A stretch of 32,000 bases of DNA from Flavobacteriaceae bacterium (GTDB taxonomy: Bacteria; Bacteroidota; Bacteroidia; Flavobacteriales; Flavobacteriaceae), in contig OZ245049.1 in the NCBI GenBank assembly GCA_965224465.1, positions 3,030,001 through 3,062,000 on the forward strand, given 5' to 3'. The notes under the pieces are model-generated. The model was not told the DNA's origin and ran no database searches. It saw only the letters and a list, made by a program, of their open reading frames with translations. The position numbers and the translations under genes are program-made. Below are positions 9,022 through 30,089 of this stretch, piece by piece (position 1 is the stretch's first letter; each line of letters starts with the position of its first letter).

Positions 9022-10230
9022 GCAGCCATGAAAACTCCGTCAACTTATGAACTTCTGAAGGAAAAAGAGGAGCCAAAGGAGTATCGTGAAGAAGATATTT
9101 ACTCCTGTACAGATGTTTCTGATGGTATATTGAAAAACATAACGATACAGCAGGTCAAAAATTTTGTAGACATATTGGATAAAGCTGTTTTGGATTCGAT
9201 GTTGTTTTCGTTGCAAAAACAAGGAATACTAATTGACAAAAATTTGCAGTATACAATATCTGATATTGTATCAGCTGCAAATATTGCTTCAAAGCATAAA
9301 GGGTTAATTACCTATTGGTTGGATATATTGACAAAAAGAGGATATATAGAGAGGTTAGGTACTGGTTTTTCTATGGGTGATGTAGTAATCACCACCGATA
9401 CTTTTAATAGGAGTTGGGGATTTGTCAAGGATGCTTGGAATAATAAATTAGGTGACCCACTAACAATGGAGTATTTGGTGAAAAATGCAGAGCAGTTACC
9501 AGAGCTAATGAATGATACTCAAAAAGCAGCATTATTATTGTTTCCGGAAGGTCGCTTAGATATTGCTAATTCATTATATAGAGATACCATTACAGCAAAA
9601 TATTTAAATGAGTCGGTATCTGAAGCAGTTTATAGAATTGCAAAATATAGGATGTCAAATTCTTCTTCTTTAAAACAGTTAAAAATACTTGAAATTGGTG
9701 CAGGAACTGGTGCAACAACAGTATCTGTAGCTTCAAAATTACAAGAAACTATTGTAAGTTATATTCATGTAGATTATTTGTTTACAGATGTTTCTGATTT
9801 TTTCTTAAACAACGCAAAGCATCTATTAAAAACCTATCGATGGATAAATTTTCAAGCTTTAGATATTGATCAGGATTTTATAGAACAGCAGGTGAAATCA
9901 GAGAGTTTTGATATAATTATTGCTGCAGGAGTTCTTAATAACGCCGAGAATACAGATAAAGTAATTGAACAAATGATGAATTCTTTAATAAAAGGAGGGT
10001 GGTTATTAATCACAGAACCTACAAGAGAATTTTTAGAAATTCTTATATCACAAGCTTTTATGATGACGATGCCAGAAGACGTACGAAAGGAGGAAAAAAC
10101 AACTTTTTTTACACCTTCTCAATGGAGTAACGTATTTAATAAAGCAGGTGCTCAAAAAATAGTTGTCCTACCAAAAGAAGACAATCCATTAACACCTTTT
10201 GAACAAAAATTATTCATTGTAAAAAAATAG
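7957..10230 (+). CDS. Fusion protein: thiazolinyl imine reductase (PchG / Irp3-YbtU family) + class I SAM-dependent methyltransferase
   Basis: 757-aa ORF; see the two domain entries below. Confidence 0.85.
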   Translation: MIPKKIKTVVCGSTFGQFYLESLKKLQNQFDVVGLLSQGSERSKKCAEQYGLPLFTSIDQLPADLDLACVVLRSGVMGGNGTELSLQFIEKGIHVLQEHPVHHKDLALCLRAAQKNKVRFQTGDLYVHLPEVRRFINCAKALLKEQKATYIDVAYASQVSYPLMHILSEALPGTRPWKIEKTTKTEGPFTVLTGSIGKTPIILRAHNQINPDDPDNHLHLLHRITIGVEGGSLSLNDTHGPVVWHPRLHVPENLGSMKELSATNAAYLLENSVQVLGEYSPTNYTEILSKQWPFAIGEDLRSIKKSMETKKGFQLKSQNELLVSMQWQELTNALGYPSLVAQSSHQPLAVDILQQAAMKTPSTYELLKEKEEPKEYREEDIYSCTDVSDGILKNITIQQVKNFVDILDKAVLDSMLFSLQKQGILIDKNLQYTISDIVSAANIASKHKGLITYWLDILTKRGYIERLGTGFSMGDVVITTDTFNRSWGFVKDAWNNKLGDPLTMEYLVKNAEQLPELMNDTQKAALLLFPEGRLDIANSLYRDTITAKYLNESVSEAVYRIAKYRMSNSSSLKQLKILEIGAGTGATTVSVASKLQETIVSYIHVDYLFTDVSDFFLNNAKHLLKTYRWINFQALDIDQDFIEQQVKSESFDIIIAAGVLNNAENTDKVIEQMMNSLIKGGWLLITEPTREFLEILISQAFMMTMPEDVRKEEKTTFFTPSQWSNVFNKAGAQKIVVLPKEDNPLTPFEQKLFIVKK
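9139..10227 (+). other. SAM-dependent methyltransferase domain (intact motif I)
   Basis: Motifs seen are ILEIGAGTGATT (motif I), acidic FTDVS, FQALDIDQD, FDIIIAAGVLNN and KGGWLLITEP. The N-terminal helical part (WLDILTKRGYIE) resembles NRPS-embedded MT domains. Confidence 0.8.
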
Positions 10231-15916: not shown

Positions 15917-15960
15917 CATTGAAAGAGGATGATAGATACACTAAAATAAACAGTAAAAAA

Positions 15961-17307: not shown

Positions 17308-17382
17308 TTTCAAAATAGTTTACAGTGGTTATTTGGAACCGAGTATAGGATTAACTTATGTAGATGCATTACCTAGTGTATT

Positions 17383-18009: not shown

Positions 18010-18026
18010 TATCTAAGGCGTTAATT

Positions 18027-18060
18027 ACCATCAATAATTTAAGGATTATTGATGGTTTTA
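18027..18060. terminator. Hairpin between the convergent operons; likely intrinsic terminator for the plus operon
   Basis: A perfect 12-bp stem (accatcaataat at 18027-18038, attattgatggt at 18045-18056) has a 6-nt loop and is followed by ttttaataatgttttt. The right arm encodes the last codons (..TINNP*) of the minus-strand thioesterase gene. Confidence 0.5.
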
Positions 18061-18788
18061 ATAATGTTTTTCAGGTAATTTTCACCTAGATTTTGCACGA
18101 AAAAATGATCCCCCTTAAATTCCTTTATCGTAAAATTATCTCTTGTAAGTTCTTTCCAGTAATTCATTATGGGAAGGGTAGCATCAATGTCTTCTGCTGC
18201 CGCATGTGCAACAATAGGAATGTTTATTTTTTGACTTTTATAGCTAAAATTTTCGTGTAAACGTAAATCACTTCGAATCATAGGAATTAAGAATGCGATC
18301 AATTCCTTATTGTCCAAAACTTCTTTTGGTGTCCCGTTTAAGAGTCTAAGTTCTGCAACCAATTCTTCATCACTCAATTTGCTGTGAAACTCAGAAGTAT
18401 CCATTTTATGCGGAGCATGTCTTCCAGCAACAATAATTTTTTCTGGAGAGATATTGTATTTTTTTTTCAATTGAAAAGCGGTTTCAAAAGCGATGACAGC
18501 GCCCATACTATGACCAAAAAAAGAAAAAGGAGTATGACTGTCAATTACAGGGACAATGTTTTTCATCAACTCATGTACCAAAAGGTTAAAATCTTCTATA
18601 CAGGATTCCCCAATTCTACTTCCTCTTCCGGGGAGTTCAATCGGGATAAATTCTATGGAAGTATCGTGTGTAACCCAATGTTTAAAGATACTAGAACCTC
18701 CTCCTGCATAATGAAAACAGAATACTTTAGCCTTAGATTTTTTTGAATTTCGAATTCCGTAAGGAAACCATTTATTGTTATAATTCAT
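18039..18788 (-). CDS. Type II (editing) thioesterase
   Basis: The 249-aa ORF carries FCFHYAGGGSSIFKHW, GHSMGAVIAFE (GxSxG) and GDHFF. It starts 11 nt downstream of the megasynthase stop. Confidence 0.85.
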   Translation of the reverse strand: MNYNNKWFPYGIRNSKKSKAKVFCFHYAGGGSSIFKHWVTHDTSIEFIPIELPGRGSRIGESCIEDFNLLVHELMKNIVPVIDSHTPFSFFGHSMGAVIAFETAFQLKKKYNISPEKIIVAGRHAPHKMDTSEFHSKLSDEELVAELRLLNGTPKEVLDNKELIAFLIPMIRSDLRLHENFSYKSQKINIPIVAHAAAEDIDATLPIMNYWKELTRDNFTIKEFKGDHFFVQNLGENYLKNIIKTINNP

Positions 18789-18799
18789 AGGTGTTTTTT

Positions 18800-21700
18800 T
18801 TAGTGGTTGCTTTTTTCAAGTTGAGGGATCTCTATATATTGATCCCAGTCTTCCAGTGCTATAAATTGATGTAGCATATTTTCATAGGTACGAACCATCT
18901 CTTCGATCCACTTGTTTTCAAATACGTTATCTACAATATCCCAGTTGATATGAATGGAGCCATTTCGTTCATATACCTGATGATCCATTGCTACTTGTGG
19001 CGTTTGACTAATGGCAAATACTTCTTTTAGTTCTGGTGGGTAATGGGTGTTTTTTTCTTGAGTTTCACCAAACAGTAAACTGGTAAATACGATGGGCATT
19101 AAGGCTTTTCCAGGACTGTCTTTTCCTAATCTTTTTAAAATATCCATTCCATCCTGAGTTCGATATTCTACAGCTTTCCATAGCTGTTGCTGTACCGTTT
19201 CAATTTCTTCTAGGATTGTTTTGTTATCATTTTTAAAATAAGAAATCAAGGTAACATTTGTAAAGTCTCCAAGGATTTTAGGAACATCTTTATGAATTGG
19301 AAACCTATTGAAAATAGTAAGGTTTATGGTGAAATCAGGATTTGTACTCCAGTGAGCTAGTACCTTCATAAAAATAGTACATATTACCGCAGAAGGAGTA
19401 AATCTATATTGTTTTATTTTGGAGAATAATTGTGTTGATTTTTCTGTATCCAATACAATTTTCCAACGTTTAAAAAATGGTTTTTCGATGTCTTTAAAAG
19501 CTGTTTTAAGAGGTAGGTTTGGAGCAGGGGGAATTTGTTTTATATGTGCATTCCAAAATTGTTGCGCTTCCGAGATATTACTTTGCGTATGCAGCCATTT
19601 TTCTTCTTGATTCATGTATTCTTTGAATGTGAATTTTGGGGTCGCAATTTCCTTTCCATAATAAGAAGCAAAAAGTTCTTGTACAACCATTTCTGTACTC
19701 GAAGCATCTAATAATAGACAGTCAAAACTGAAGTGTATTCTAGAAATATCAGTGCCTATCTGACTTAATTGAAGGTGAAACATAGGCCAGGTTCCAAGTT
19801 GGTAATTATGGTGAGACCATTTATTTCGAATAGTTTCTAATGCTTGTTCTGATTGTATTTGTCTTACAGGAATTGTAAAGAAAGGAACTTTTTTCATTAA
19901 TTGTTGGCTGGCATTACTGTACACTTTTGTACGTAACATCTCATGTCTTTTGATCACACCATTCCAAGCGTGTTCTAAACGTTTTGGATCCAACTGATGA
20001 CATTCTAACTCTAGGTAATAATGCGTGTTGATGTTTCCAATTTCAAAATTAGAGGACCTTCCAAATAAGTATGCTAATTGTATAGGTGTTAATTTAAAAG
20101 GTTGATATTTTCTAAGGATATGAGTAACTTGCTCCTGTTTTTTTGGTTGGATTAAAACGTGTAAAAGAGCATTTTTAGAAGCTTTTATTTTTTCTAACAA
20201 TGTTTTTGAGAGTGCGCCTTTGGGGGCTTTAAATTTCAATTTCCCTTCTTTCACATAAAGTAAGATCTCCTTATCTTTACATGTATTTAAAATAGCATCA
20301 CATGTTTTTAGAGAATCTTTATCTGCTGTTGTGTCACTGCGTAATTGTAGTTGTTCTATTTCCTGCGCAAAATCTATTTTCCCTCCTGCCATGGTGTGTA
20401 GGTAGAATTGATGAATAGAAAGGTTAAAAGACGCTTTTATTTCGTCAAAATCGTACGCTGTTAATGATGAACATCCAATATTTAAAGAAGGTGATTTACT
20501 CTCTAATAACTGACTTAGGATTCCGCTTTCTATAAAACAAATTTGTAAAGATTTGTCTTGATGGATAGGGTAGACTGCATTTAGGTCTGCAACAAAATGG
20601 ACTAAGAAGGAAGTGTTAGGCATCATGTTTCTAAAAGAAATAGATGCTATTTCTGTGATATTCCCTAACTTTATTAGAGAATGTGCCTGTACGTCTAGGT
20701 AATAGTTCCCTTGTTCGATCCCTTCAATACCTTTGTTAAAAATAGTGAGATAGGTTTGTATAGGGTAGGTTTCGCTTAGAGAATTGTAGTTGTAGCTTTT
20801 TTCTCCATAAATATTTTGTTGCAAACAGAAAGAAATAAATTTTTTGAAATTTAGATTTTCAATAGGGGAGTTTAGATAGTTGTTAAAACTATTCGTGATT
20901 GTTCCTAAAGGATTTTTTTCTTCTAAAGGAAGGTCTAAAGAAATGCTATTTTGTAATGATAAATCAGTTCTGTGTGCGCTTATAGTTTCCTTAAAGGAAA
21001 TGTATTCTTCATAATTTTCTATGGTGGTGATATTGTTTAGATATGCTTTCTGTTCTGTAGAATACAGACTAAATGGCGATGCTGCCTTGTCTGAAGGGAT
21101 CTCTTTTTCTTCAAAAGAAAATCCTTTATCGTCATAGTATGCTATAAGTTGCTTTATAGATGAATACCGAATCATTTCTCCTACAGAAGGTCTCTCTGTA
21201 AAGTGTATTTCTAACTCGTTCGCTAATTTTATCATGGCGACAGAAGAAACTCCCAAATCGGAAAAATTATCTTTAGACTTTAATTTAGGAAGTCCTAAAA
21301 TGTTTTTTATTAGGTTTAGTACAGGGTGATGCTCTTCTGCGGTATTTGAAGATATAGGTGTATTGTCACTGTTGTATTTATGATAGTATTTCAATAATTT
21401 TTTTCTGTCTACTTTTCCATTAGCACTCATCGGATAAACATCTAAACAGAGAATTTTTTCAGGTATAAAATAGTCAGGGAGCTGTGTTTTTAAGTGCATT
21501 TTGAGTTCCGTTTCAGAAAATTCTGAAGCAGGACATTTTACAAAAGCAATTAGTTTTTTATGCTCCATCTTGTCTCCAATGGGGATAATTATTGGATCGG
21601 TATTTGTTGCGTATTTTCTGAAAGCTGCTTGTATTTCTCCTATTTCTACGCGGTATCCATTTATTTTTAGCTGTGTATCTTTTCGACCTAGAAATTCGAT

Positions 21701-24700
21701 GATGTTGCCTTGACGGTAGCGGCCATAATCTCCAGTATCATAGAGTCTTTGTTGCAGTTCTTTTTCAAAAAAGAAAGCACTGTTGCTGCGTTTTTTTTCT
21801 TTTAGATATCCTGTAGCGAGCCCTTTACCTGCAATGTGTAGTTTTCCTTCTACCCATTCTGGGCACGGTCTATTAAATGTATCTAGGATATAAAATTCCT
21901 GATTTGCCAAAGGGTATCCATACGGAATGGATTTCCAGTCTGGATCAAGGACGTCTACATGGTAGTAGTTGGACCAGATAGAAGCTTCCGTAGCTCCTCC
22001 CATGCTTGTTAATGTTGCATGGGGGATTGCAGTGTTTATTTTTTGAATAAGCCCTAAGGGAATCCAGTCTCCAGAATGGATGATTTTACATAAGGAGAGG
22101 TCTTTACCTACCGTTGGATTTTTTAACATATAATCGCAGTAAATATCCATTAATGCAGGAACAGAATTCCAGATACTTACTTGGTGTTGGGAAGAAAGTG
22201 TTTTCCAACATTTAGGGTCGATACGCTCTTCTTCTGTTGGCAATACCAGCGTTCCTCCTGCATGTAGCAGTCCAAAAATGTCATATACAGAAAGGTCAAA
22301 ACTTAAGGAAGAAACTCCTAAAACACGGTCTTTTTCTGTGATTTTTAGTTTGTTGTTTACATCGATTATGGTATTCATCGCTGCTTTGTGTTGAATACAG
22401 ACTCCTTTTGGAATGCCGGTAGAACCAGAGGTGTAAATGATATATGCTAATTCTGAGGGATTGATGGCTATTGATGTATAAAGATCCTTTATAGTATCAA
22501 TATTCGGAGGCGTAAATTGTTTGACATCTAGTTTGCCAGTATCTAAAATTTGATCTGTAAAAATAGCAATTGCTTCGGATTGTTTTAGTATTTCGATTGT
22601 TCTGTTTATCGGTTGATTATATGTAAACGGAATGTAAATAGCTCCTATTTGTAAGATTCCCAGAACCACCGCAATTTGATCAAAAGATTTAGCCATTTGT
22701 AGGGCTACTTTATCTCCCTTTTTAAGGGAATTTTTTTGAAGTAAAACAGAGACTTGATTTGCTCTTTTGATTAGCTGTTTATAGGAGTATTCTTTTTGCT
22801 TGTAGATAATAGCAGTACTCTTTGGTGTTTGGAGTGCATTTGCGTAGATTTTTTCGTGTAATAACAAATTTCCAATTGGTGAAAAAGTGTTGTTTGCTTC
22901 TTGCTGAACTGCCAATTGTTTGGAAGTTCTTAAATCTGTTAAACTTTTGTCCCAGAACGTATTGTCTGTGATGGAAAGTTGTACAAGCTCGGTATATTTC
23001 TCGAACATTGCAGCTATCATATCCCTTGGGAAAACAGCATCTAAAGTATCCCACGATAAGGTAACGCCTCCATTTTGATGGTAGATTTGATGATCTATCC
23101 AAACTTGTGGAGTAGAAGAAACGGACCAGTTTATTTGGTTTAAAAACCCTTGTTGCTCATCTTGTTTAAGAGTATCAATGCCAAGGGCGCTAGTAAATAC
23201 AAAAGGATACATGCGGTTTTTGGTATCGGATTGGCTATTGAGTTTTTTTACAAATTCAATAGCCGAGTAGGTACTGTTTTCTAAGTCTGTATGCATTTGT
23301 GCTTGTATCGTAGTCCCGTTTTTTCCAGTAGCTTGTTGCTTTCTCTCAATTTCAACCAAGGTTAGTTGTGTAAAATCTCCTATGATTTCGTTGATTTGAG
23401 GATGCACATTATCTCTATTAAATACAGTGAGCATAACTGCAAAATGCGAACCACCACCCCAGGCAGAAAGCACTTCGGTATAGAGCGTTAGCAATGCAGC
23501 AGAAGGAGTCAGGTTTTTTGTTGCTGCAGATTTTATAAAAGAGTTCCATGATATTGGATCTATCCAATGCTCTCTTCTTTTGAAATGTCCTTCCACCTGT
23601 TTTTTTCCAGTATCTTTAACAGGGAGTTGTGGTGCAAGTGGGAAATGTTGTATTCTGTTTGTCCAGTATTGTTCGGCTTGATGGTATGTGTTTGTAAATG
23701 TTCGTTTGTTGTGATAATGAAGGTAATCTTTATAAGATATTTCTAAAGGATTTAAGGAAACTCCTGTGTATAAAAGATATAAGTCTTTCCAAAATATGAA
23801 GAGACTTAAAGCATCGGCAATAAGAAAATCTATCGTAAAATGGATGCGGTGCTTGTGATTTTCCAGCTCAGAAATTCGCATTTCGAACATAGGTTCTCCC
23901 AAAGGAATAATCTTGGTAGCCATTTCATCTCTTAGTTGTTGTAAATGCTCTTTTAAAGATGGTATATCCGTTTTTTTGTAGATTATAAGAGGCGTCGGGA
24001 TGGATGCTTTGATTTGTTGCTTGCCATCTTTAGAAATTATACACCGCAACATCTCATGTCTTTTGATGAGGTTTTGCAAGGCTCTATCAAAATGTTGAAT
24101 GCTTAGGTTTTCAATGTCCATTTCAAAATACGCACTGCAACTTACACCTCCCCAGTCCATTTCGTGATTTCGTCCTGCCCAATAGGCATATTGAATTTCA
24201 TTTAAAGGAAAGGATTCATGTCGTTGTTTTGGGAATGCCTGAAAGATTGAAACAGGTGTGTTATTTATTTCTTTGAGCGTGTTATGTAAGGCTTTATGCA
24301 CGATCTCAGTCCATTGGTTTATAGTGCTTTGCTTTAAAAACAAGGCGGGTTTTAAAGTAATAGCAAGGTCTTTTTTCCAAAAGGTGATTAAACGAATAAT
24401 TACAATAGAATTAAGTCCTAATAATAGTAAATTTTCATCATTTTGTAAATCTTCTTCTTCTATTTCCCATTCCTTTATAAGTGAAGTTCTTATGTAATTT
24501 TTAAGTTCAGAAATGTTTGTAAAAGTGTTGATAGTTACTTCCTGTTCTTCTTCAATATCTTCTTCGTTTTCTGGCTTTATAAGTGGGGTGTTTTTTATAA
24601 AATCCAAAATTGCAGGACTGTGTTCTTTCTCTTCTTTTGTAAGAGAAGAATTGTTGATGTTTTCTTTTATCTTTTCCCAAACAGTTGTTTTAGGAAGCGT

Positions 24701-27415
24701 ATAAGCTTCAAGGGAAGGTGAAAGTTTAAAGTGTTTTTCTCTAAACATATAATTAGGGACACGGATTTTTATTAGGTTGGAGTTGTTGTAATATGCTTTC
24801 CAATTAATGGGAGCCCCACAGAGGTATAACTGAAACAAACTTTTTTCAATCCGATGCGCTGTTTTTTCATCTTTATAGTTAGAAGCTATAATTTCAGCAC
24901 CGTCTTTAGTTATTTGTTCTACAATAGTTATAAGTGTAGGAGAAGGTCCTACTTCTAAAAAGATATAATCATTGCTGTTGTGTATGGATTGAATCGTAGT
25001 ACAGAACTTTACTGTAGACAAGATATGTGTACTCCAATAGTGCCAGGTTGTCATTTCTAAAGTAATGTCTTTACCTGTAACACTAGAGCGTATGTTTTTT
25101 GTTGGAACATGGTATTTAATTTTTTTAGAAACGTTCTCAAATTCGGTCAACATGGGCTTCATAAGAGGGGAATGTGCAGCAAGAGAAACATCTAATTTTT
25201 TGGTATCGATTCCTTTTTCTTTAAATAGTTGACATACTTTTTGTACTTGCTTTTCGGTGCCCGAAATAACCGTTTGCTCAGGAGTATTTACGGCGGCAAT
25301 AGTTACGTTTTTAATATTTTTTATGTTGTTTTGTACAGTTGTTTCATCCGTAAAAATGGCAGCCATTGTACCGTTTTTAGGTAAAGAATACATGAGCTCA
25401 CCTCTAATTGTAATAAGTTGAATAGCATCTTCCAATGTAAAAATTTCCGCCAAGCAGGCTGCAATATATTCTCCTGTACTATGTCCTATAAGCAGGTTTG
25501 GTGTAAGCCCATAATCCATCCACATTTTGGACAAAGAGTATTCCACAAAAAATAATGCCACCTGTGTATATCGCATTTCATGGACTGTATTATCCGAAGA
25601 AAATATCTTTTCCAATAAATTGTTCTGTGTCTGGTTTTTGTATATCTGATTGCATTGATCCATGTACTTTTTAAAGTACTTGTTTTCGGTATAGAAACCT
25701 TTAAACATTCCAGGGTACTGAGATCCACCACCACTGTATAGAAAAACAATTTTTTTATTGGAGGTACTTCTGTTTATTACAGCATTAGAAACGCCTTTAA
25801 TTGCTTCTTCTAAATTGGTTTTTAATGCTTCTGTGGTTTCTCCCCAAACCACTATTTTTTCTTTTAAGTCTGCTTTGGTACTGTTTTGACTATAGCTTAA
25901 GCTTCCCAGTTGCTGAGGTGTTTTTTCTTTTATAAATGATAAGAAGGAGTGTAGTTGGTTTTTTAGTCCAGCTTTGGTAACTGCACTAAATTTGAAGGGC
26001 CAACTTCTCTTTGCATCTGGAGTTTCTTTGTTTTTGTGCGCTATAGAATCGCAGGGGTGTTCTTCTATTACAATATGTGCGTTTGTACCACTTAAGCCAA
26101 AGGCACTAATAGCTGCTTTTCTTAGGGTTGTTTTATTCCAAGGTATTGTTTTTTGTGGAATTTTAAATTTCTGATCAGACCAGTTAATATGGGGAGAAGG
26201 GGTTTTGAAGTGTAAATTACCTGGGATTTTTCCTTTTTCTACAGCGAGAATAATTTTTATTAGACCAGCTATTCCTGCGGCGGCTTCAAGGTGCCCAATT
26301 GCAGTTTTAACAGCTCCTAGATATATGGGGGTTTCGCGGTTTGACGAAATTACATTTCCTAATGCAGTGATTTCTATGGGGTCTCCTAAGGCAGTTCCAG
26401 TACCGTGTGTTTCTATAAAATCAATATCAGCAGCATTTATTTTACTGCGTTTCCATACCTCTTTAATTAATTTTTCTTGTGCAGGTCCGTAAGGAGCCGT
26501 CAATCCAGCACTTAAACCATCTTGATTGGTTCCACTTCCTTTTATGATGGCATGTATATGATCTCCGTCTCTTTTGGCGTCAGATATTTTTTTTAAAATC
26601 ACGACTCCGCTTCCTTCTCCTCGCACTGTACCATTGGCAGCGGCATCAAAAGTTTTAATTTCACAATTTTGAGACAATACATTAAGAGAGGCCATGAGCT
26701 CTGTTGTTTCGGGAGAGAGCATTAGGTTTACACCCCCAGCTATTGCCATGTCACAATCACCTGATAGGAGCCCTTTGCATGCCAAATCTACCGAAACCAA
26801 AGAGGAGGAACAAGCGGTGTCTGTACTTATACCAGGGCCTTGAAAACCAAAAAAGTAGGAAGCTCTTCCAGAAATAAACGAAAATCCTGCTCCCATTGCA
26901 TCGTTGGGATCTGTTGGGGAATTTTCGTTTTTATAATTTAATAGTTGTTGAAGATGGTCAAAAGAAGATACACCTGCATAGATTCCTGTTTTTGATCCTT
27001 TTAGTGAATCGGGTGCGTATCCTGAATTTTCTAAAGCTTCCCAACATACTTTTAAGAAAAGACGTTGTTGAGGATCTGTTTTTTCAACTTCGTTTGGAGA
27101 AAGTCTAAACAAGCGATGGTCAAACCCATACACGTCATCAAATAAGAACCCTCCTTTTTGTAAAAAAGGATTATTTTTTAGTTTTTCTTGGTCATAATTT
27201 TCCCATCTATTGTCAGGAACTTTACCAATCATATTTTTTTGTTCTAGTAATGCGTTCCAATACTCCTCTGGAGAGTTAATGCCCCCGGGAAATCTACATG
27301 CCATCCCTATAATAGCGATGGGTTCTTGTTGGTCTTTTACTTCTTTTTTTAAGCGTTTTATTTCTGTGAGAGCTTTTATTAAAATGGGAGTCTTATCGGT
27401 GGTTTGTTTTTTCAT
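18800..27415 (-). CDS. Hybrid PKS-NRPS megasynthase: KS-AT-ACP-Cy-A(Cys)-PCP-Ox-(internal docking domain)-Cy
   Basis: 2871-aa ORF; residues were counted manually and domain motifs are given below. The N-terminal coiled-coil-like ILIKALTEIKRLKKEVK is typical of KS N-terminal docking helices. Confidence 0.95.
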   Translation of the reverse strand: MKKQTTDKTPILIKALTEIKRLKKEVKDQQEPIAIIGMACRFPGGINSPEEYWNALLEQKNMIGKVPDNRWENYDQEKLKNNPFLQKGGFLFDDVYGFDHRLFRLSPNEVEKTDPQQRLFLKVCWEALENSGYAPDSLKGSKTGIYAGVSSFDHLQQLLNYKNENSPTDPNDAMGAGFSFISGRASYFFGFQGPGISTDTACSSSLVSVDLACKGLLSGDCDMAIAGGVNLMLSPETTELMASLNVLSQNCEIKTFDAAANGTVRGEGSGVVILKKISDAKRDGDHIHAIIKGSGTNQDGLSAGLTAPYGPAQEKLIKEVWKRSKINAADIDFIETHGTGTALGDPIEITALGNVISSNRETPIYLGAVKTAIGHLEAAAGIAGLIKIILAVEKGKIPGNLHFKTPSPHINWSDQKFKIPQKTIPWNKTTLRKAAISAFGLSGTNAHIVIEEHPCDSIAHKNKETPDAKRSWPFKFSAVTKAGLKNQLHSFLSFIKEKTPQQLGSLSYSQNSTKADLKEKIVVWGETTEALKTNLEEAIKGVSNAVINRSTSNKKIVFLYSGGGSQYPGMFKGFYTENKYFKKYMDQCNQIYKNQTQNNLLEKIFSSDNTVHEMRYTQVALFFVEYSLSKMWMDYGLTPNLLIGHSTGEYIAACLAEIFTLEDAIQLITIRGELMYSLPKNGTMAAIFTDETTVQNNIKNIKNVTIAAVNTPEQTVISGTEKQVQKVCQLFKEKGIDTKKLDVSLAAHSPLMKPMLTEFENVSKKIKYHVPTKNIRSSVTGKDITLEMTTWHYWSTHILSTVKFCTTIQSIHNSNDYIFLEVGPSPTLITIVEQITKDGAEIIASNYKDEKTAHRIEKSLFQLYLCGAPINWKAYYNNSNLIKIRVPNYMFREKHFKLSPSLEAYTLPKTTVWEKIKENINNSSLTKEEKEHSPAILDFIKNTPLIKPENEEDIEEEQEVTINTFTNISELKNYIRTSLIKEWEIEEEDLQNDENLLLLGLNSIVIIRLITFWKKDLAITLKPALFLKQSTINQWTEIVHKALHNTLKEINNTPVSIFQAFPKQRHESFPLNEIQYAYWAGRNHEMDWGGVSCSAYFEMDIENLSIQHFDRALQNLIKRHEMLRCIISKDGKQQIKASIPTPLIIYKKTDIPSLKEHLQQLRDEMATKIIPLGEPMFEMRISELENHKHRIHFTIDFLIADALSLFIFWKDLYLLYTGVSLNPLEISYKDYLHYHNKRTFTNTYHQAEQYWTNRIQHFPLAPQLPVKDTGKKQVEGHFKRREHWIDPISWNSFIKSAATKNLTPSAALLTLYTEVLSAWGGGSHFAVMLTVFNRDNVHPQINEIIGDFTQLTLVEIERKQQATGKNGTTIQAQMHTDLENSTYSAIEFVKKLNSQSDTKNRMYPFVFTSALGIDTLKQDEQQGFLNQINWSVSSTPQVWIDHQIYHQNGGVTLSWDTLDAVFPRDMIAAMFEKYTELVQLSITDNTFWDKSLTDLRTSKQLAVQQEANNTFSPIGNLLLHEKIYANALQTPKSTAIIYKQKEYSYKQLIKRANQVSVLLQKNSLKKGDKVALQMAKSFDQIAVVLGILQIGAIYIPFTYNQPINRTIEILKQSEAIAIFTDQILDTGKLDVKQFTPPNIDTIKDLYTSIAINPSELAYIIYTSGSTGIPKGVCIQHKAAMNTIIDVNNKLKITEKDRVLGVSSLSFDLSVYDIFGLLHAGGTLVLPTEEERIDPKCWKTLSSQHQVSIWNSVPALMDIYCDYMLKNPTVGKDLSLCKIIHSGDWIPLGLIQKINTAIPHATLTSMGGATEASIWSNYYHVDVLDPDWKSIPYGYPLANQEFYILDTFNRPCPEWVEGKLHIAGKGLATGYLKEKKRSNSAFFFEKELQQRLYDTGDYGRYRQGNIIEFLGRKDTQLKINGYRVEIGEIQAAFRKYATNTDPIIIPIGDKMEHKKLIAFVKCPASEFSETELKMHLKTQLPDYFIPEKILCLDVYPMSANGKVDRKKLLKYYHKYNSDNTPISSNTAEEHHPVLNLIKNILGLPKLKSKDNFSDLGVSSVAMIKLANELEIHFTERPSVGEMIRYSSIKQLIAYYDDKGFSFEEKEIPSDKAASPFSLYSTEQKAYLNNITTIENYEEYISFKETISAHRTDLSLQNSISLDLPLEEKNPLGTITNSFNNYLNSPIENLNFKKFISFCLQQNIYGEKSYNYNSLSETYPIQTYLTIFNKGIEGIEQGNYYLDVQAHSLIKLGNITEIASISFRNMMPNTSFLVHFVADLNAVYPIHQDKSLQICFIESGILSQLLESKSPSLNIGCSSLTAYDFDEIKASFNLSIHQFYLHTMAGGKIDFAQEIEQLQLRSDTTADKDSLKTCDAILNTCKDKEILLYVKEGKLKFKAPKGALSKTLLEKIKASKNALLHVLIQPKKQEQVTHILRKYQPFKLTPIQLAYLFGRSSNFEIGNINTHYYLELECHQLDPKRLEHAWNGVIKRHEMLRTKVYSNASQQLMKKVPFFTIPVRQIQSEQALETIRNKWSHHNYQLGTWPMFHLQLSQIGTDISRIHFSFDCLLLDASSTEMVVQELFASYYGKEIATPKFTFKEYMNQEEKWLHTQSNISEAQQFWNAHIKQIPPAPNLPLKTAFKDIEKPFFKRWKIVLDTEKSTQLFSKIKQYRFTPSAVICTIFMKVLAHWSTNPDFTINLTIFNRFPIHKDVPKILGDFTNVTLISYFKNDNKTILEEIETVQQQLWKAVEYRTQDGMDILKRLGKDSPGKALMPIVFTSLLFGETQEKNTHYPPELKEVFAISQTPQVAMDHQVYERNGSIHINWDIVDNVFENKWIEEMVRTYENMLHQFIALEDWDQYIEIPQLEKSNH
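18821..20110 (-). other. Heterocyclization (Cy) domain 2, at the extreme C-terminus with no A or PCP following
   Basis: Motifs are FKLTPIQLAYLFGR, DCLLLDASS (DxxxxDxxS) and SQTPQVAMDHQ. The protein ends ~10 residues after the domain. Confidence 0.88.
20141..20308 (-). other. Internal TubC_N-type beta-hairpin docking-like domain
   Basis: ILNTCKDKEILLYVKEGKLKFKAPKGALSKTLLEKIKASKNALLHVL shares the 10-residue string GKLKFKAPKG with the N-terminal docking domain at 10988-11149. Five of those ten codons differ synonymously. Confidence 0.65.
20366..21058 (-). other. FMN-dependent oxidase (Ox) domain, thiazoline to thiazole
   Basis: KSYNYNSLSETYPIQ fits the Ox-1 motif KYxYxSxGxxYPxQ, and GIEGIEQGNYYLD fits Ox-2 GxxxGxxxGxYYxxP. 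These motifs are described for the EpoB/BlmIII/MtaC-D Ox domains and are recalled from memory. Confidence 0.7.
21131..21334 (-). other. Peptidyl carrier protein domain
   Basis: FSDLGVSSVAMIKL contains Ser2058. Confidence 0.8.
21386..22873 (-). other. Adenylation domain, cysteine-type code (DLYNISMIWK by manual extraction), no MT insert
   Basis: Cores are AYIIYTSGSTGIPKG, FDLSVYDIF, IWNSVPAL, KIIHSGDW, SMGGATEASIW, YDTGDYGRY, GRKDTQLKINGYRVEIGEIQ and PMSANGKVDRK. Confidence 0.8.
22946..24223 (-). other. Heterocyclization (Cy) domain 1
   Basis: Motifs are FPLNEIQYAYWAGR, DFLIADALS (DxxxxDxxS) and SSTPQVWIDHQ. Confidence 0.88.
24296..24523 (-). other. Acyl carrier protein domain
   Basis: LLLGLNSIVIIRL contains Ser1003, with Asn in place of the usual Asp before the Ser. 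Only ~100 residues separate AT and ACP, so there is no room for KR/DH/ER. Confidence 0.7.
24836..25753 (-). other. Acyltransferase domain (probably malonyl-specific)
   Basis: The active site is GHSTGEY. The downstream motif SLAAHSPLM is FabD/malonyl-like (xAFHS) rather than YASH. The specificity call is weak. Confidence 0.75.
26051..27322 (-). other. Ketosynthase domain (catalytically complete)
   Basis: DTACSSSLV contains Cys202 (codon at 26810-26812). ETHGTGT and GHLEAAAG supply the histidines. Confidence 0.9.
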
Positions 27416-27417: not shown

Positions 27418-29535
27418 CTAGTCATTTAATTCGTTGTTTAATAGCGTAAGTAGGTCGTCTTCGGAGCATTGGTCATACTCAGATTCTTTAGGTGTTACAT
27501 GCGTTACGTCAAATGTTTTGTTAGTATTGTTTTTAAGATTCACTAAATAGCTGCTTAATTGATCAATGGTATTGTAGTTAAATAATACAGTAGCAGGGAT
27601 AGGTTCTTTGATACTATCTTCGAGAGCGTCTCTGATTAATAAAGACATCATAGAGCTAATTCCCAGTTCTACAAATGGTATTGTAGGGTCAAAATCTGTT
27701 TTTGAGACTCCTAACTGTTCTGCAACCAAGCGTGTTATGTATTCGTTTAGTTGTTCTTTATTTCGCAAATCTGTGATGGGGTATTTTAGATATGTTTTGG
27801 TATAGGAATGAAGCACTTTTTTCCATTCCTTATCAAGGTACATTGCTTTGGTTTTGCTACGCTGTATTTTTCCGCTAGTTGTTCTAGGAAGATGCATGGG
27901 GGGAATAAAAAGAATAGCTTCTAATTGGATGCCGTGTATCCTCAATGTTTCTTCTTTAATTTGTTGAATCCATACATCATATTGTGGAGTTCTTACTGCG
28001 CCTCGGGTAAGTTCTTGTATGAGAATTACTTTTTCTTGCCCTTCTTTTGTGATGGAAAATGCGGCGGCACCGTCTGTTCTAAAGTTGCTATTGGCAATAA
28101 AAGAAGACCGCTCTATATCATGTGGGTAATAGTTGACCCCATTAATGATAATTAAATCTTTTATTCTTCCAGTGACATATAATTCTCCTTTCTGATCTAA
28201 AAAACCAAGATCTCCTGTTCTTAAATAGATGGATGATTGCGTAGAATTTTCTGAGACAAAAGCCTTTGTAGTAGCTGCTAGATTGTTCCAATATCCCTTG
28301 GTTACCGAAGGTCCCGAAAAACAAATTTCTCCAATTTCACAGCTGCCTAAGGGAGTTGTTTGTGTTGGATCTCTAATGGTTACTTTATTGTTATTTATAA
28401 TTGTTCCGTTGCTTACTAAAAAGGAAGTATGATCTTCTTTTTTTTGGATAGGAGCGCTCATGTCTTGTAGTAACCCTTGGCGTATAATTTTAACGGTATT
28501 GTTTAGGAGTGCTTTTCGTTCTACCTCAATCCAATGTACTTTACGTCCCATAAAAGTAGATGAAATTGCCAAGGTGCTTTCTGCCAATCCATAGCTAGGT
28601 GATAAGGTTGTAGGTCCCATTCCAAAAACTGATGCGATGTTTTGAAAGCGATACATGGTATTCAGGTGAATAGGTTCTGCCCCACAAACAGCTCTTATCA
28701 AAGTATGTAAAGAAAGGTCTTTTACTGTTGTTTTTTCTAATTTTTCTGCCAGTAGTTCATACGCAAAATTCGGTGCAGCTGTATGTGTTCCACGGTACAT
28801 AGAAATGGCTTTTGCCCAGATTAATGGTTGACTCATAAAATCGGTTGGATGTATCAAAACAACTTTACACCCGGAGAATAAACCTTGCAATATGCCAAAA
28901 ATGAGTCCCATATCATGATAAAAAGGCAACCAGCTAACAATTACACTGTCTTCTTTGATGGCTTGAAATTGCTTTACTTCTTTGAGATTGTTAATCAAAG
29001 ACGATTGGGTGACCATGACTCCTTTTGGATTTCCTGTTGATCCAGAAGTGTATTGAAGAAATGCGATTTCGTTGACACGATAAGGGCTAGAAATAGTGCC
29101 ATTATCAGTATGTGAAAAAGAAGGAATTACAAGGGAAGAGAGTATTGAAGAATTCGCGGTACAATTAGATAAAAAGTCGATACTATGGCGGTCTGTTAAA
29201 ATAGCTTTCGCATTGCAGTCTGTTGCAATTTTTTCCCACTTTGTCAGTGCTTTGTTTCTTCCAGGCATGTTTAAAGGAATCGGGATGACTCCAATCCAAT
29301 TGCATGCTAAAAAACAGATTATAAAATCAAGTCCTTGTGGAAAGAGTAAAAGACAGCGATCTCCATGATTAATTTCGGATACAATTAATTGTTTGGCATA
29401 GCGCTCTACCTGATCCAAAAGTTCCAAATAGGTGATGCTTGTACTATTTAGATCGGCATCTATAAAACTATAGGCGCATGTATTGGGAGATGTTTTAGCT
29501 CTTGATTGTAATTTATTTATAATAGTGTCGGTCAT
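27418..29535 (-). CDS. Fatty acyl-AMP ligase (FAAL) fused to an ACP: loading module
   Basis: 705-aa ORF. FLQYTSGSTGNPKGVMVTQSSLINNL, YLRTGDLGF and GRIKDLIIINGVNYYPHDIE are FAAL-type cores. The C-terminal carrier motif is FVELGISSMMSL, and the acidic helical tail is DDLLTLLNNELND. The stop lies 2 nt before the megasynthase start. Confidence 0.9.
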   Translation of the reverse strand: MTDTIINKLQSRAKTSPNTCAYSFIDADLNSTSITYLELLDQVERYAKQLIVSEINHGDRCLLLFPQGLDFIICFLACNWIGVIPIPLNMPGRNKALTKWEKIATDCNAKAILTDRHSIDFLSNCTANSSILSSLVIPSFSHTDNGTISSPYRVNEIAFLQYTSGSTGNPKGVMVTQSSLINNLKEVKQFQAIKEDSVIVSWLPFYHDMGLIFGILQGLFSGCKVVLIHPTDFMSQPLIWAKAISMYRGTHTAAPNFAYELLAEKLEKTTVKDLSLHTLIRAVCGAEPIHLNTMYRFQNIASVFGMGPTTLSPSYGLAESTLAISSTFMGRKVHWIEVERKALLNNTVKIIRQGLLQDMSAPIQKKEDHTSFLVSNGTIINNNKVTIRDPTQTTPLGSCEIGEICFSGPSVTKGYWNNLAATTKAFVSENSTQSSIYLRTGDLGFLDQKGELYVTGRIKDLIIINGVNYYPHDIERSSFIANSNFRTDGAAAFSITKEGQEKVILIQELTRGAVRTPQYDVWIQQIKEETLRIHGIQLEAILFIPPMHLPRTTSGKIQRSKTKAMYLDKEWKKVLHSYTKTYLKYPITDLRNKEQLNEYITRLVAEQLGVSKTDFDPTIPFVELGISSMMSLLIRDALEDSIKEPIPATVLFNYNTIDQLSSYLVNLKNNTNKTFDVTHVTPKESEYDQCSEDDLLTLLNNELND
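27532..27762 (-). other. Acyl carrier protein domain of the loading module
   Basis: The LGISS motif places the Ser near residue 627-628. Confidence 0.8.
27781..29535 (-). other. FAAL adenylation domain
   Basis: See the CDS entry. There is no A10 lysine-containing CoA-ligase tail before the carrier domain. Confidence 0.8.
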
Positions 29536-29939: not shown

Positions 29940-30089
29940 ATTTCCAAGTGAAGGTTTAGAAATGGAATTATTTTTTGTTTTAGCTAGACAAAAAATGAAA
30001 GGATAGTATTAGCTATCGTTCTATTTTTTAACAACGCTAGAACGTAAAACAAACTATTTATATCGGTCATTTTGGGTTTTAGTTGGTAT
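29940..30089 (-). repeat. Repeat copy C: T-S-(54-bp insert)-H, whose T part encodes the last 12 codons and stop of the peptidase-like gene
   Basis: This is the inverted partner of copy A (see copy A). It carries 54 extra bp (29971-30024) between S and H. The T part encodes IPTKTQNDRYK-stop. Confidence 0.85.

What the first reader, a model, noticed from the sequence alone, without database searches (positions are those of the whole stretch)
18800..20308. Module split across two operons: orphan terminal Cy on the megasynthase, half-Cy remnant on a free-standing A(MT)-PCP
The megasynthase ends ...PCP-Ox-dock-Cy2, ~10 residues after the Cy domain, with no A or PCP to serve as acceptor. The only unpaired A-PCP is the protein at 3092-6757, encoded ~15 kb away on the other strand. 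Its first ~235 residues align only to the C-terminal lobe of a Cy domain (3224-3796) and lack FPLTxxQxAYxxGR and DxxxxDxxS. Cy2 must therefore condense its cis donor PCP1 with a trans-loaded Cys-S-PCP2. The architecture looks like an ancestral dock-Cy-A(MT)-PCP subunit whose Cy became fused to the upstream protein, leaving a decayed half-copy behind. Breaks normally fall between modules (after the PCP), not inside one.
Basis: partly seen in the sequence, partly recalled or inferred. Interest (0 to 1): 0.8.

Follow-up and report, generated by a model that had tools for sequence, protein, structure and literature searches.

The report
Thiazoline module naturally split after its cyclization domain
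A peptide-making enzyme line in a marine flavobacterium has one module cut in two, with its ring-forming domain on one protein and its amino-acid loader (carrying a dead half-copy of that domain) on another; the cut is real, but it is old and shared by many bacteria rather than a one-off accident.

Summary
The 2871-aa megasynthase (18800-27415, minus strand) reads KS-AT-ACP-Cy1-A-PCP-Ox-dock-Cy2 and stops 18 residues after a complete, motif-intact Cy2. The only unpaired A-PCP is the 3092-6757 protein. Its residues ~45-234 are a degenerate C-terminal lobe of a Cy domain (hhalign 96.6%) with every catalytic motif lost.

The evolutionary story needs revising. This is a lipid/polyketide-primed relative of the sorangibactin/coelibactin clusters. 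The break between Cy and A(MT)-PCP is conserved across phyla. In Firmicutes, dock-Cy is a free-standing ~500-aa protein. In Chryseobacterium it is fused to ...PCP-Ox, exactly as here. At least 40 A(MT)-PCP homologues carry the same vestigial lobe (184-295 aa) and others have lost it. The remnant therefore predates the fusion and was not left behind by it. The two-operon layout differs from the one-strand Chryseobacterium order and looks like a local rearrangement.

Most likely mechanism (inferred): Cy2 joins the thiazolyl chain on PCP1 to Cys-S-PCP2 held in trans. The internal dock is as conserved as the A domain. Both the A(MT)-PCP protein and the SrbE-like reductase end in the same [E/V]EGE[I/L] tail, so the dock may still recruit a trans partner.

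Verdict: new variant of a known kind, moderate interest.

The parts
18800..27415 (-). Megasynthase, 2871 aa: KS-AT-ACP-Cy1-A(Cys)-PCP1-Ox-dock-Cy2
   Evidence: Pfam domains. The identical product is on record from a 5.24-Mb contig.
18857..20095 (-). Cy2 (residues 2441-2853): a complete terminal heterocyclization domain with no cis A or PCP
   Evidence: All Cy motifs present. 40-44% identical to free-standing dock-Cy proteins and 42% to the fused Chryseobacterium Cy2. Structure model matches EpoB, HMWP2-Cy2 and BmdB Cy.
18800..18856 (-). 18-residue tail (...EDWDQYIEIPQLEKSNH) plus stop. The protein ends just inside what would be the Cy-A linker.
   Evidence: Free-standing and Chryseobacterium homologues end at the same point after the conserved W.
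20147..20299 (-). Internal TubC_N / beta-hairpin docking domain (residues 2373-2423) between Ox and Cy2
   Evidence: Pfam PF18563, 40.8 bits against a cut-off of 26. 51% identical to the Chryseobacterium counterpart, against 18-22% for the flanking linkers.
20381..21130 (-). Ox-like region (residues 2096-2345), a putative FMN-dependent thiazoline oxidase
   Evidence: No Pfam hit. 34% identical to the nitroreductase-annotated region of L010 and similar to L004. SagB-type dehydrogenase TIGR03605 at E 6.7e-11, below cut-off.
21137..21322 (-). PCP1, the proposed cis donor carrier for Cy2
   Evidence: PF00550 at residues 2032-2093
3092..6757 (+). Free-standing [vestigial Cy lobe]-A(Cys, MT inserted)-PCP2 protein, 1221 aa
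   Evidence: Pfam. Cys-type A motifs FDLSVYD, WNSVPA, SGDW, GGATEASIW and PCP motif GGDSL. 66% identical orthologues in Aquimarina.
3092..3856 (+). N-terminal extension (residues 1-255). Residues ~45-234 are a degenerate Cy C-terminal lobe and 235-262 are the Cy-A linker.
   Evidence: AF2 model of residues 1-720 aligns over 709 columns to the PchE Cy-A structure. dN/dS is 0.42 against 0.13 for the A core. No Cy motifs.
6737..6754 (+). C-terminal tail MEEGEI, a SLiM-like docking peptide
   Evidence: M, E, G, E and I are nearly invariant in the last columns of a 42-sequence alignment. Tails listed.
6754..7854 (+). SrbE-like saccharopine-dehydrogenase-family reductase ending in ...EEVEGEL (tail at 7837-7851)
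   Evidence: Pfam. All 10 homologues checked end in a related pentapeptide, strictly [EV]EGE[ILV] in 7 of them.
7957..10230 (+). Irp3/PchG-like thiazolinyl imine reductase fused to a methyltransferase
   Evidence: Pfam PF01408, PF21390 and PF08242
10234..10956 (+). Glyoxalase/VOC-like protein (SrbJ-like)
   Evidence: Pfam PF13468. SrbJ role described in PMC10127202.
10976..15916 (+). dock-Cy3-A(Cys, ~280-aa insert)-PCP3-TE termination module. The TE nucleophile is Cys (GYCMG).
   Evidence: Pfam and TE motif. 47-51% identical to the Cy3 modules of Firmicutes clusters.
18039..18788 (-). Type II thioesterase immediately downstream of the megasynthase
   Evidence: Pfam PF00975. Same position in Chryseobacterium L010.
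27418..29535 (-). Fatty-acyl-AMP ligase-ACP loading protein
   Evidence: Pfam PF00501, PF23024 and PF00550
15919..18009 (+). MATE exporter (15919-17307) and Sfp-type PPTase (17383-18009)
   Evidence: Pfam

Best explanation
The window holds a hybrid PKS/NRPS cluster of the sorangibactin/coelibactin type, primed by a fatty acyl unit (FAAL-ACP, then KS-AT-ACP) instead of salicylate. Module 1 (Cy1-A-PCP1-Ox) makes a thiazole. Module 2 is naturally split. Its Cy domain (dock-Cy2) is fused to the C-terminus of the upstream megasynthase. Its A(MT)-PCP2 half is a separate protein. Inferred mechanism: the A domain loads Cys onto its own PCP2. Cy2 takes the acyl-thiazolyl chain from the cis PCP1 and condenses and cyclodehydrates it onto Cys-S-PCP2 in trans. 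The thiazoline is reduced (Irp3-like and/or SrbE-like reductase) and methylated. The MEEGEI tail of the A(MT)-PCP2 protein then docks to the beta-hairpin dock of Cy3-A-PCP3-TE for the last Cys and release by a Cys-nucleophile TE. The ~190-residue lobe in front of the A domain is an inactive vestige of a Cy that once sat there in cis. It survives, under relaxed purifying selection, probably because the C-lobe and linker pack against the A core. The split is ancient and shared by Firmicutes and Bacteroidota. The fusion of dock-Cy to the upstream protein is seen so far in two Flavobacteriales lineages (this window and Chryseobacterium). The convergent two-operon layout differs from the co-directional Chryseobacterium order, and its direction of change is not established.
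For: Shown:
- Domain maps.
- Cy2 motifs intact, and a complete Cy fold in the model.
- All three A domains carry the same Cys-type motifs, and PCP2 has GGDSL.
- Every carrier domain is accounted for, so the only acceptor without its own Cy is PCP2.
- Cassette orthology: A(MT)-PCP, Sacchrp_dh, Irp3-like, dock-Cy-A-PCP-TE and a separate dock-Cy in L004, L005, L007 and L009.
- The identical fused ...PCP-Ox-dock-Cy in Chryseobacterium L010.
- Fused and free Cy2 form one clade apart from cis Cy domains in a neighbour-joining tree.
- Vestigial lobe. AF2 plus Foldseek aligns it to the PchE Cy-A structure over 709 of 720 columns.
- Family-wide presence with variable length, and loss in L012.
- dN/dS 0.42 for the extension against 0.10-0.13 for the catalytic regions.
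- SrbE-, SrbI- and SrbJ-like genes and a Cys-nucleophile TE match the characterised sorangibactin and bulbichelin logic.
- The MEEGEI tail is nearly invariant. Beta-hairpin docks bind the last ~5 residues of such tails (PMC9113145).
- The C-A interface matters for A-domain activity (bioRxiv 10.1101/2021.08.23.457306).
Against: No biochemistry exists: the trans condensation, the product and the order of reduction and methylation are inferred from collinearity and from relatives. How Cy2 finds PCP2 is unknown. In the AF2 model the vestigial lobe sits where a cis Cy C-lobe would pack on the A domain, so Cy2 cannot adopt the canonical Cy-A platform. The megasynthase of the closest relatives (Aquimarina L001 and L002) could not be fetched, so the fusion is documented in only two Flavobacteriales genomes. 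dS is near saturation (~1-1.5), so the dN/dS values are approximate. The origin of the remnant (displaced cis Cy or partial duplication) is unresolved. The neighbour-joining tree and the profile scores can both be distorted by unequal rates.
Confidence: 0.7

Rival explanations
1. A recent fission of an ancestral dock-Cy-A(MT)-PCP subunit in this lineage moved the Cy onto the upstream protein, and a decaying half-copy of that same Cy stayed on the A(MT)-PCP gene.
For: An internal N-terminal-type dock shows that a fusion happened. The remnant covers exactly the same C-lobe span that Cy2 retains, up to the WDxxI end. In L005 the dock-Cy and A(MT)-PCP genes are adjacent and overlap by 4 nt.
Against: The remnant is present in 40 or more homologues from several phyla, including clusters whose dock-Cy is still free-standing. 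The remnant profile scores higher with cis Cy domains than with Cy2 or free Cy. A clean fission leaves no duplicate lobe. The fusion is shared with Chryseobacterium, which already has the remnant.
Confidence: 0.1
2. The N-terminal half-Cy is not a passive vestige. It is the adaptor that recognises Cy2 (or the donor PCP1) and holds the split module together.
For: The reading frame is intact over ~250 codons at ~46% identity. dN/dS is 0.27-0.49, below 1. The first helix and the last strands and helix are conserved blocks across phyla.
Against: Length varies from 295 down to about 150 residues. It is absent in L012-type proteins that sit in otherwise identical cassettes. The central 80 residues are only ~11% identical and poorly modelled. 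The best-conserved part is the linker and last helix, which contact the A core in Cy-A structures.
Confidence: 0.2
3. Cy2 does not condense onto PCP2. It is an auxiliary or inactive domain, for example a second cyclodehydratase acting on the PCP1-bound intermediate as in the VibF Cy1/Cy2 division of labour. The 3092 protein would then feed Cy3 or another acceptor.
For: Tandem Cy domains with divided roles are known (VibF and AngN, from general knowledge). In the Ruminococcus cluster L008 a free dock-Cy occurs without an adjacent A(MT)-PCP.
Against: Domain arithmetic: three Cys-A domains and three PCPs need three condensing Cy domains, and the remnant cannot condense. Cy2 keeps every condensation and cyclization motif across phyla. 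The characterised relatives build three consecutive azol(id)ine rings with three Cy domains.
Confidence: 0.08
4. Artefact: a frameshift, an assembly break or pseudogenes create an apparent orphan Cy and a truncated Cy-A-PCP.
For: None found beyond the unusual architecture.
Against: The same stop position relative to the Cy fold occurs in Chryseobacterium and in all free-standing homologues. A TEII gene starts 11 nt downstream. No N-lobe coding remnant lies upstream of 3092. The A(MT)-PCP N-terminus is conserved in Aquimarina orthologues. The gene product is recorded from a 5.24-Mb contig.
Confidence: 0.02

Closest known systems
Sorangibactin / coelibactin / anthrochelin / bulbichelin clusters (srb, SCO7681-92, ant, bbch)
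   Same: Three successive Cys/Ser heterocyclization modules. An SrbE-like saccharopine-dehydrogenase-family reductase, an Irp3-like thiazolinyl imine reductase, an SrbJ-like glyoxalase/VOC protein, methyltransferases, and a terminal TE with a Cys nucleophile.
   Different: Those are salicylate-primed and their NRPSs are unsplit (SrbC CP-HC-A-CP-HC-A-CP; SrbD HC-A-MT-CP-TE). Here the primer is FAAL-ACP plus a KS-AT-ACP module, ring 1 is oxidised by an in-line Ox domain, and module 2 is broken between Cy and A.
Anguibactin synthetase (AngN with AngR and AngM)
   Same: A Cy-only protein (AngN) condenses and cyclizes onto cysteine that is activated by a different protein (AngR) and carried on a separate carrier (PMC5524678). 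AngR is also reported to carry a defective Cy in front of its A domain (from memory, not checked here).
   Different: AngN is a free Cy-Cy didomain with no dock and is not fused to the donor synthetase. There is no sequence orthology to the cassette here.
Bleomycin BlmIV / BlmIII
   Same: The upstream NRPS ends in a Cy domain and the next protein begins with A-PCP(-Ox). [quoted passage not shown] 2003, title cited in PMC10127204; the architecture is recalled from memory).
   Different: The BlmIII A domain is reported to be non-functional and is loaded by BlmIV. Here the trans A domain has all core motifs. Neither a beta-hairpin dock before the terminal Cy nor a half-Cy remnant is described there.
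Yersiniabactin HMWP2 Cy2-PCP2
   Same: Best solved-structure match by identity (34%, TM 0.90). It is also a Cy whose acceptor PCP has no A domain of its own in the module.
   Different: In HMWP2, Cy2 and PCP2 are covalently linked and are loaded by the upstream A domain of the same protein.
EpoB / TubC-type beta-hairpin docking domain plus Cy
   Same: The same dock-Cy bidomain architecture (Foldseek top hit 5T81). C-terminal SLiM tails are the known partners.
   Different: There the dock is at the N-terminus of a subunit. Here, and in Chryseobacterium, it is internal yet still conserved.
XUC-type unit (C acceptor-side lobe, A, T) from NRPS engineering
   Same: The 3092 protein begins at the inter-lobe boundary of a Cy domain and so has the composition C-lobe, A, PCP.
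   Different: In engineered XUC units the lobe is functional and pairs with a donor-side lobe. Here the lobe is catalytically dead and a complete Cy is supplied separately.

Membership tests
NRPS heterocyclization (Cy) domain: Cy2, 18857-20095 | N-lobe motifs FPL(T/S)xxQxAYxxGR and DxxxxDxxS | tested here: met
   FKLTPIQLAYLFGR and DCLLLDASS
NRPS heterocyclization (Cy) domain: Cy2, 18857-20095 | C-lobe motifs GDFT, (V)FTS and QTPQVxxD, which hold the Thr and Asp implicated in cyclodehydration | tested here: met
   GDFT, VFTS and QTPQVAMD present
NRPS heterocyclization (Cy) domain: Cy2, 18857-20095 | Complete two-lobe C-domain fold | tested here: met
   AF2 pLDDT 82.7. Foldseek: HMWP2 Cy2 7JTJ TM 0.90, rmsd 2.6; BmdB Cy 5T3E TM 0.89.
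NRPS heterocyclization (Cy) domain: Cy2, 18857-20095 | Condensation and cyclodehydration activity | not testable with these tools
   Requires an enzyme assay
NRPS heterocyclization (Cy) domain: N-terminal extension of the 3092 protein | Homology to a Cy domain | tested here: met
   C-lobe only: blastp 48 and 40 bits; profile E 1e-27 to 1e-15; hhalign 96.6%
NRPS heterocyclization (Cy) domain: N-terminal extension of the 3092 protein | N-lobe and catalytic motifs present | tested here: not met
   No Z1, DxxxxD, GDFT, FTS or QTPQV motif. No N-lobe in the ORF or upstream. It is a vestige, not a Cy domain.
Sorangibactin/coelibactin-type metallophore cluster | SrbE-like, SrbI (Irp3)-like and SrbJ-like tailoring genes beside Cy-A(MT)-PCP modules | tested here: met
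   PF03435, PF01408 with PF21390, and PF13468, compared with PMC10127202
Sorangibactin/coelibactin-type metallophore cluster | Terminal TE with a catalytic Cys instead of Ser | tested here: met
   GYCMG at residue 1419 of the 10976 protein, and the same in L001
Sorangibactin/coelibactin-type metallophore cluster | Salicylate starter (salicylate synthase, aryl-AMP ligase, ArCP) | tested here: not met
   No such genes in the window. FAAL-ACP and KS-AT-ACP take their place.
Sorangibactin/coelibactin-type metallophore cluster | Tandem N-methylthiazolidine product with homocysteine-derived release | not testable with these tools
   No chemistry available
Beta-hairpin (TubC_N) docking domain: 20147-20299 | Sequence match to PF18563 above the curated cut-off | tested here: met
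   40.8 bits against 26. The KLKFKAPKGAL hairpin aligns with the other docks.
Beta-hairpin (TubC_N) docking domain: 20147-20299 | Located at the N-terminus of a subunit | tested here: not met
   Internal, at residues 2373-2423 of 2871. Also internal in Chryseobacterium L010.
Beta-hairpin (TubC_N) docking domain: 20147-20299 | Binds a C-terminal SLiM of a partner protein | not testable with these tools
   Candidate tails MEEGEI and EVEGEL were found.
Trans-acting Cy systems (AngN type) | Cy and its acceptor A-PCP lie on different polypeptides | tested here: met
Trans-acting Cy systems (AngN type) | Cy protein is free-standing | tested here: not met
   In the window it is fused to the donor synthetase. 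It is free-standing in the Firmicutes orthologues.

The most novel reading that the evidence does not exclude
The internal beta-hairpin dock in front of Cy2 is not a fossil of the fusion. It would be the working tether of the split module, binding the conserved [E/V]EGE[I/L] C-terminal tail carried by the A(MT)-PCP2 protein and by the SrbE-like reductase. The dock would then recruit the acceptor carrier protein and/or a tailoring enzyme, rather than the upstream donor as in canonical dock-SLiM pairs. One tail would serve two docks in turn (Cy2 as acceptor site, Cy3 as donor site). Together with the C-lobe-A-PCP composition of the 3092 protein, this would be a natural example of a module rebuilt from non-covalent parts at XUC-like boundaries.
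Probability: 0.35. Interest if true: 0.65.

Novelty: new variant of a known kind. Interest (0 to 1): 0.45.

Why it matters
First, it documents a phylogenetically widespread and apparently stable break inside an NRPS module, between Cy and A. It occurs in three natural states: free dock-Cy, dock-Cy fused to the donor synthetase, and an A-PCP with or without a vestigial Cy lobe. This is a ready-made comparative series for asking what a Cy or C domain needs from its A-PCP partner, and what the acceptor-side lobe contributes to an A domain. Both questions bear on current NRPS engineering rules (XU/XUC boundaries, 'extended gatekeeping').

Second, it identifies an uncharacterised, lipid-primed branch of the sorangibactin/coelibactin metallophore family in Flavobacteriales and Firmicutes.

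Third, the shared C-terminal pentapeptide on the carrier module and on the enigmatic SrbE-type reductase suggests how that essential but unassigned enzyme is brought to the assembly line.

Tried and rejected
- The word-indexed search with the 265-aa extension found nothing. The exhaustive phmmer search and the full-length query were needed instead.
- The search with dock-Cy2 did not return even the query's own protein, so the absence of Aquimarina hits there is uninformative.
- Look-ups of the window's own A(MT)-PCP protein by exact sequence failed, so the source record was not retrieved. Only a 5.24-Mb contig length is known.
Whether those genomes have the fused Cy2 is untested.
- L003 (Flavobacteriales MAG, 29% identity) was not a cassette relative and was dropped.
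- Pfam gave no hit for the Ox region or for the ~280-aa insert in the A domain of the 10976 protein. NCBIfam gave only a sub-threshold SagB-type hit for Ox.
- A weak GNAT hit in the extension (E 0.0019, below cut-off) was dismissed in favour of the Cy-lobe homology.
- The idea that the A(MT)-PCP protein is a recent truncated duplicate of the Cy3 module was rejected. The MT inserts are not detectably similar, and the A cores are no closer to each other than to other Cys A domains.
- The primary AngN paper (PMC2576486) is not held.
- The sigma-70 and terminator scan of 17300-18900 was at background.
Full report
**What is in the window.** Thirteen ORFs of 150 aa or more were found, in DNA of ~35% G+C.

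On the minus strand:
- 27418-29535 encodes a fatty-acyl-AMP ligase-ACP.
- 18800-27415 encodes a 2871-aa megasynthase.
- 18039-18788 encodes a type II thioesterase.

On the plus strand:
- 3092-6757 encodes A(MT)-PCP with a ~255-aa N-terminal extension.
- 6754-7854 encodes a saccharopine-dehydrogenase-family protein.
- 7957-10230 encodes an Irp3-like thiazolinyl imine reductase fused to a methyltransferase.
- 10234-10956 encodes a glyoxalase-like protein.
- 10976-15916 encodes dock-Cy-A-PCP-TE.
- A MATE exporter and a PPTase follow.

**Checking the observation.** The megasynthase reads KS-AT-ACP-Cy1-A-PCP1-[Ox-like]-TubC_N dock-Cy2. It stops 18 residues after the Cy match, 11 nt upstream of the start of the TEII gene. 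Cy2 has every Cy signature: FKLTPIQLAYLFGR, DCLLLDASS, IPPAPNLP, GDFT, VFTS and QTPQVAMD. Its AF2 model (pLDDT 82.7) superposes on the EpoB docking-Cy bidomain, on HMWP2 Cy2 (34% identity, TM 0.90, rmsd 2.6 Å) and on the BmdB Cy domain.

The Ox assignment is weaker. Pfam finds nothing. The region is, however, 34% identical to the nitroreductase-annotated segment of a Chryseobacterium homologue and similar to that of a clostridial one. It also gives a sub-threshold SagB-type dehydrogenase hit.

The N-terminal 265 residues of the 3092 protein align to the C-terminal lobe plus Cy-A linker of Cy3 (48 bits) and Cy1 (40 bits). A profile of the extension matches dock-Cy family columns 275-488 of 514 with 96.6% hhalign probability. 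None of the Cy motifs survives in it. Nothing resembling an N-lobe is encoded in the 900-bp AT-rich spacer upstream. An AF2 model of residues 1-720 (pLDDT 79.6) aligns over 709 columns to the Cy-A part of PchE (7EN1/7EMY, TMq 0.74). Confidence is low exactly in the degenerate stretches 103-118 and 139-182. The identical 2871-aa product is on record from a 5.24-Mb contig, which argues against an assembly artefact.

**What kind of cluster this is.** The tailoring set matches the experimentally dissected sorangibactin cluster and its relatives anthrochelin, bulbichelin and coelibactin (PMC10127202; PMC13573596). That set is an SrbE-like Sacchrp_dh protein, an Irp3-like reductase, an SrbJ-like glyoxalase/VOC protein and methyltransferases, together with a terminal TE whose nucleophile is Cys (GYCMG). 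Those relatives make salicyl-azole-bis(N-methylthiazolidine) metallophores. Their NRPSs are unsplit (SrbC CP-HC-A-CP-HC-A-CP; SrbD HC-A-MT-CP-TE). The window differs in three ways: a lipid/polyketide primer, an in-line Ox domain, and a break inside module 2. All three A domains share the motifs FDLSV(Y/F)D, SGDW and GGATEASIW, which are typical of Cys-activating domains (the assignment to Cys is an inference).

**The split is conserved, not local.** The closest homologues of dock-Cy2 (33-43% identity over at least 94% of the query) are free-standing proteins of 470-521 aa made only of a TubC_N dock and a Cy domain. Their genomic contexts were read in Clostridiaceae bacterium M8S5, two run assemblies and one further NCBI genome assembly. 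All show the same cassette: A(MT)-PCP, Sacchrp_dh, Irp3-like, dock-Cy-A(MT)-PCP-TE, and a free dock-Cy. In L005 the dock-Cy gene directly precedes and overlaps the A(MT)-PCP gene. Window Cy2 is 40-44% identical to these free Cy proteins but only ~30% to any cis Cy. Window Cy3 is 47-51% identical to their Cy3.

In Chryseobacterium aurantiacum a 1931-aa protein reads ACP/PCP-Cy-A-PCP-Ox-dock-Cy and ends at the same point. It is followed on the same strand by TEII, [extension]-A(MT)-PCP, Sacchrp_dh, Irp3-like and dock-Cy-A-PCP-TE. In a neighbour-joining tree the two fused Cy2 domains are sister to the free-standing clade, and all lie apart from cis Cy domains. Two conclusions follow:
- The Cy | A-PCP break is ancestral to this cassette.
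- The fusion of dock-Cy to the donor synthetase is shared by two Flavobacteriales lineages (this window and Chryseobacterium).

The polarity of the fusion is inferred from the N-terminal-type docking domain now sitting internally. The convergent two-operon layout of the window differs from the co-directional Chryseobacterium order.

**The half-Cy is an old vestige.** A full-length search found many free-standing A(MT)-PCP proteins. Forty of them carry a 184-295-aa extension, from Aquimarina, Chryseobacterium, Flavobacterium, Paenibacillus, Cohnella, Clostridium, Sporomusa and metagenomes. L005 carries ~155 aa. Nine have essentially none. One extension-less protein (L012) sits in an otherwise identical cassette, has stop codons upstream and keeps only the Cy-A linker.

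The extensions are mutually alignable. Some still show the LPxxPxxP inter-lobe motif, so the truncation point is the N-lobe/C-lobe boundary. Conservation is concentrated in three places: the first strand and helix (21% mean identity to the window), the last strands and helix (24%), and the linker (34%). The middle is 11% identical, compared with 57% for the A core.

Against the Aquimarina orthologues (66% identical overall) the extension is 44-46% identical with an intact frame. Its dN/dS is ~0.42, against 0.10-0.15 for the A core, MT and PCP. dS is near saturation, so these values are approximate.

The extension profile, with the linker excluded, scores 70 bits on Cy3, 64 on Cy1, 46 on Cy2 and 18-37 on free-standing Cy proteins. 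This speaks against the remnant being a decayed copy of Cy2. It favours the remains of a Cy that once sat in cis before this A domain and was functionally replaced. Rate effects cannot be excluded.

The A(MT)-PCP protein is not a recent duplicate of the Cy3 module.

Why keep the lobe? The C-lobe and linker form the platform on which the A core sits in Cy-A structures. The C-A interface is reported to influence A-domain activity (bioRxiv 10.1101/2021.08.23.457306). This is an inference. The lineages that lost the lobe show it is not indispensable.

**Mechanism (inferred).**
1. FAAL-ACP and KS-AT-ACP build a beta-keto or extended acyl chain.
2. Cy1-A-PCP1-Ox adds Cys and oxidises it to a thiazole.
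3. Cy2, tethered in cis to PCP1, condenses and cyclises onto Cys-S-PCP2 of the 3092 protein in trans.
4. Reduction and methylation follow.
5. The tail of the 3092 protein docks on the beta-hairpin dock of the 10976 protein, which adds the third Cys.
6. The Cys-TE releases the product.

The argument rests on domain arithmetic: three condensing Cy domains, three Cys-type A domains, three PCPs and no orphan carrier. It also rests on the chemistry of the characterised relatives.

**Docking clues found on the way.** The A(MT)-PCP family ends in a nearly invariant M(E/V)EGE(I/L). Beta-hairpin docks bind roughly the last five residues of such tails, and one tail can serve several docks (PMC9113145). 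Three further observations bear on the internal dock:
- The SrbE-like reductase of the window ends in ...EEVEGEL. All ten homologues examined end in a related pentapeptide, strictly [EV]EGE[ILV] in seven of them.
- The large upstream NRPSs of the Firmicutes clusters end right after their PCP, with no such tail.
- The internal dock of the fused proteins is 51% identical between the window and Chryseobacterium. That is as conserved as A1 (54%) and PCP1 (51%), and more than Cy2 (43%), Ox (34%) or the flanking linkers (18-22%).

Each cluster thus has two docks and two tail-bearing proteins. The dock before Cy2 may therefore still recruit a trans partner: the acceptor module, the reductase, or both.

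**Comparison with known systems.** Trans-acting Cy domains are established. AngN condenses and cyclises onto cysteine that is activated by AngR and carried by AngM (PMC5524678). In bleomycin, BlmIV ends in a Cy and BlmIII begins with A-PCP, with cis and trans aminoacylation (Du et al. 2003, cited; the architecture is recalled from memory). HMWP2 Cy2-PCP2 lacks its own A domain. The principle is therefore not new.

What is new here:
- The particular cassette.
- Its breadth across phyla.
- The coexistence of free and donor-fused forms of the same Cy.
- The widespread vestigial acceptor-side lobe on the A-PCP partner.
- The shared tail on the reductase.

I rate it a new variant of a known kind.

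**Limits.** There is no biochemistry and no product. The Aquimarina orthologues' megasynthase was not retrievable. The tree is neighbour-joining only. The Ox and Cys assignments are by homology and motifs. The source organism was not identified beyond its similarity to Aquimarina.

Noticed in passing
window 7837-7851; L001, L002, L004, L005 and L007-L012 Sacchrp_dh genes: The SrbE-like saccharopine-dehydrogenase-family protein ends in ...EEVEGEL. All 10 homologues checked end in a related pentapeptide, strictly [EV]EGE[ILV] in 7 of them. It resembles the near-invariant M(E/V)EGE(I/L) tail of the A(MT)-PCP proteins, which suggests this enigmatic but essential tailoring enzyme is recruited through a beta-hairpin dock.
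   Followed up: partly
window 10976-15916 (Cy3, around residue 200) and the Cy3 domains of L001-L011: The whole Cy3 clade has E-F-L-I-A-D-W-x-S, i.e. ExxxxD instead of the canonical DxxxxD, while the Cy2/free-standing clade keeps FDCxxxDAWS.
   Followed up: partly
window 13628-14485 (residues 885-1169 of the 10976 protein) and 7957-10230: The A domain of the termination module has a ~280-aa insert with no detectable methyltransferase. Firmicutes homologues have a clear MT there. In the window (and in L001 and L012) the Irp3-like reductase is instead fused to an MT, so the MT function may have moved.
   Followed up: partly
window 15230-15244 (GYCMG, residues 1419-1423 of the 10976 protein): The TE nucleophile is Cys rather than Ser, as in the sorangibactin, anthrochelin and bulbichelin TEs that release with homocysteine. 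The clostridial L004 homologue has GYSLG.
   Followed up: partly
window 30054-31946 (-): A 630-aa ORF next to the cluster has no Pfam or NCBIfam match.
   Followed up: partly
window 2175-3091: A ~900-bp AT-rich non-coding spacer full of stop codons separates a GH114 glycoside hydrolase gene from the start of the A(MT)-PCP operon. It is probably the cluster boundary and promoter region.
   Followed up: no
L008 (Ruminococcus flavefaciens FRCT01000007.1): A free dock-Cy sits between an Irp3-like gene and a tail-bearing Sacchrp_dh gene, next to a 2560-aa ArCP-Cy-A-PCP-Cy-A-PCP protein. No A(MT)-PCP lies within 10 kb, so its acceptor is unclear.
   Followed up: no
P0067 (949 aa) and P0089 (1157 aa): Other A-domain proteins outside this cassette begin with only the C-terminal half of a Condensation domain (profile positions 192-436 in P0067, 192-341 in P0089). 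Lobe-only remnants before A domains may be more general, or these may be truncated gene calls.
   Followed up: no
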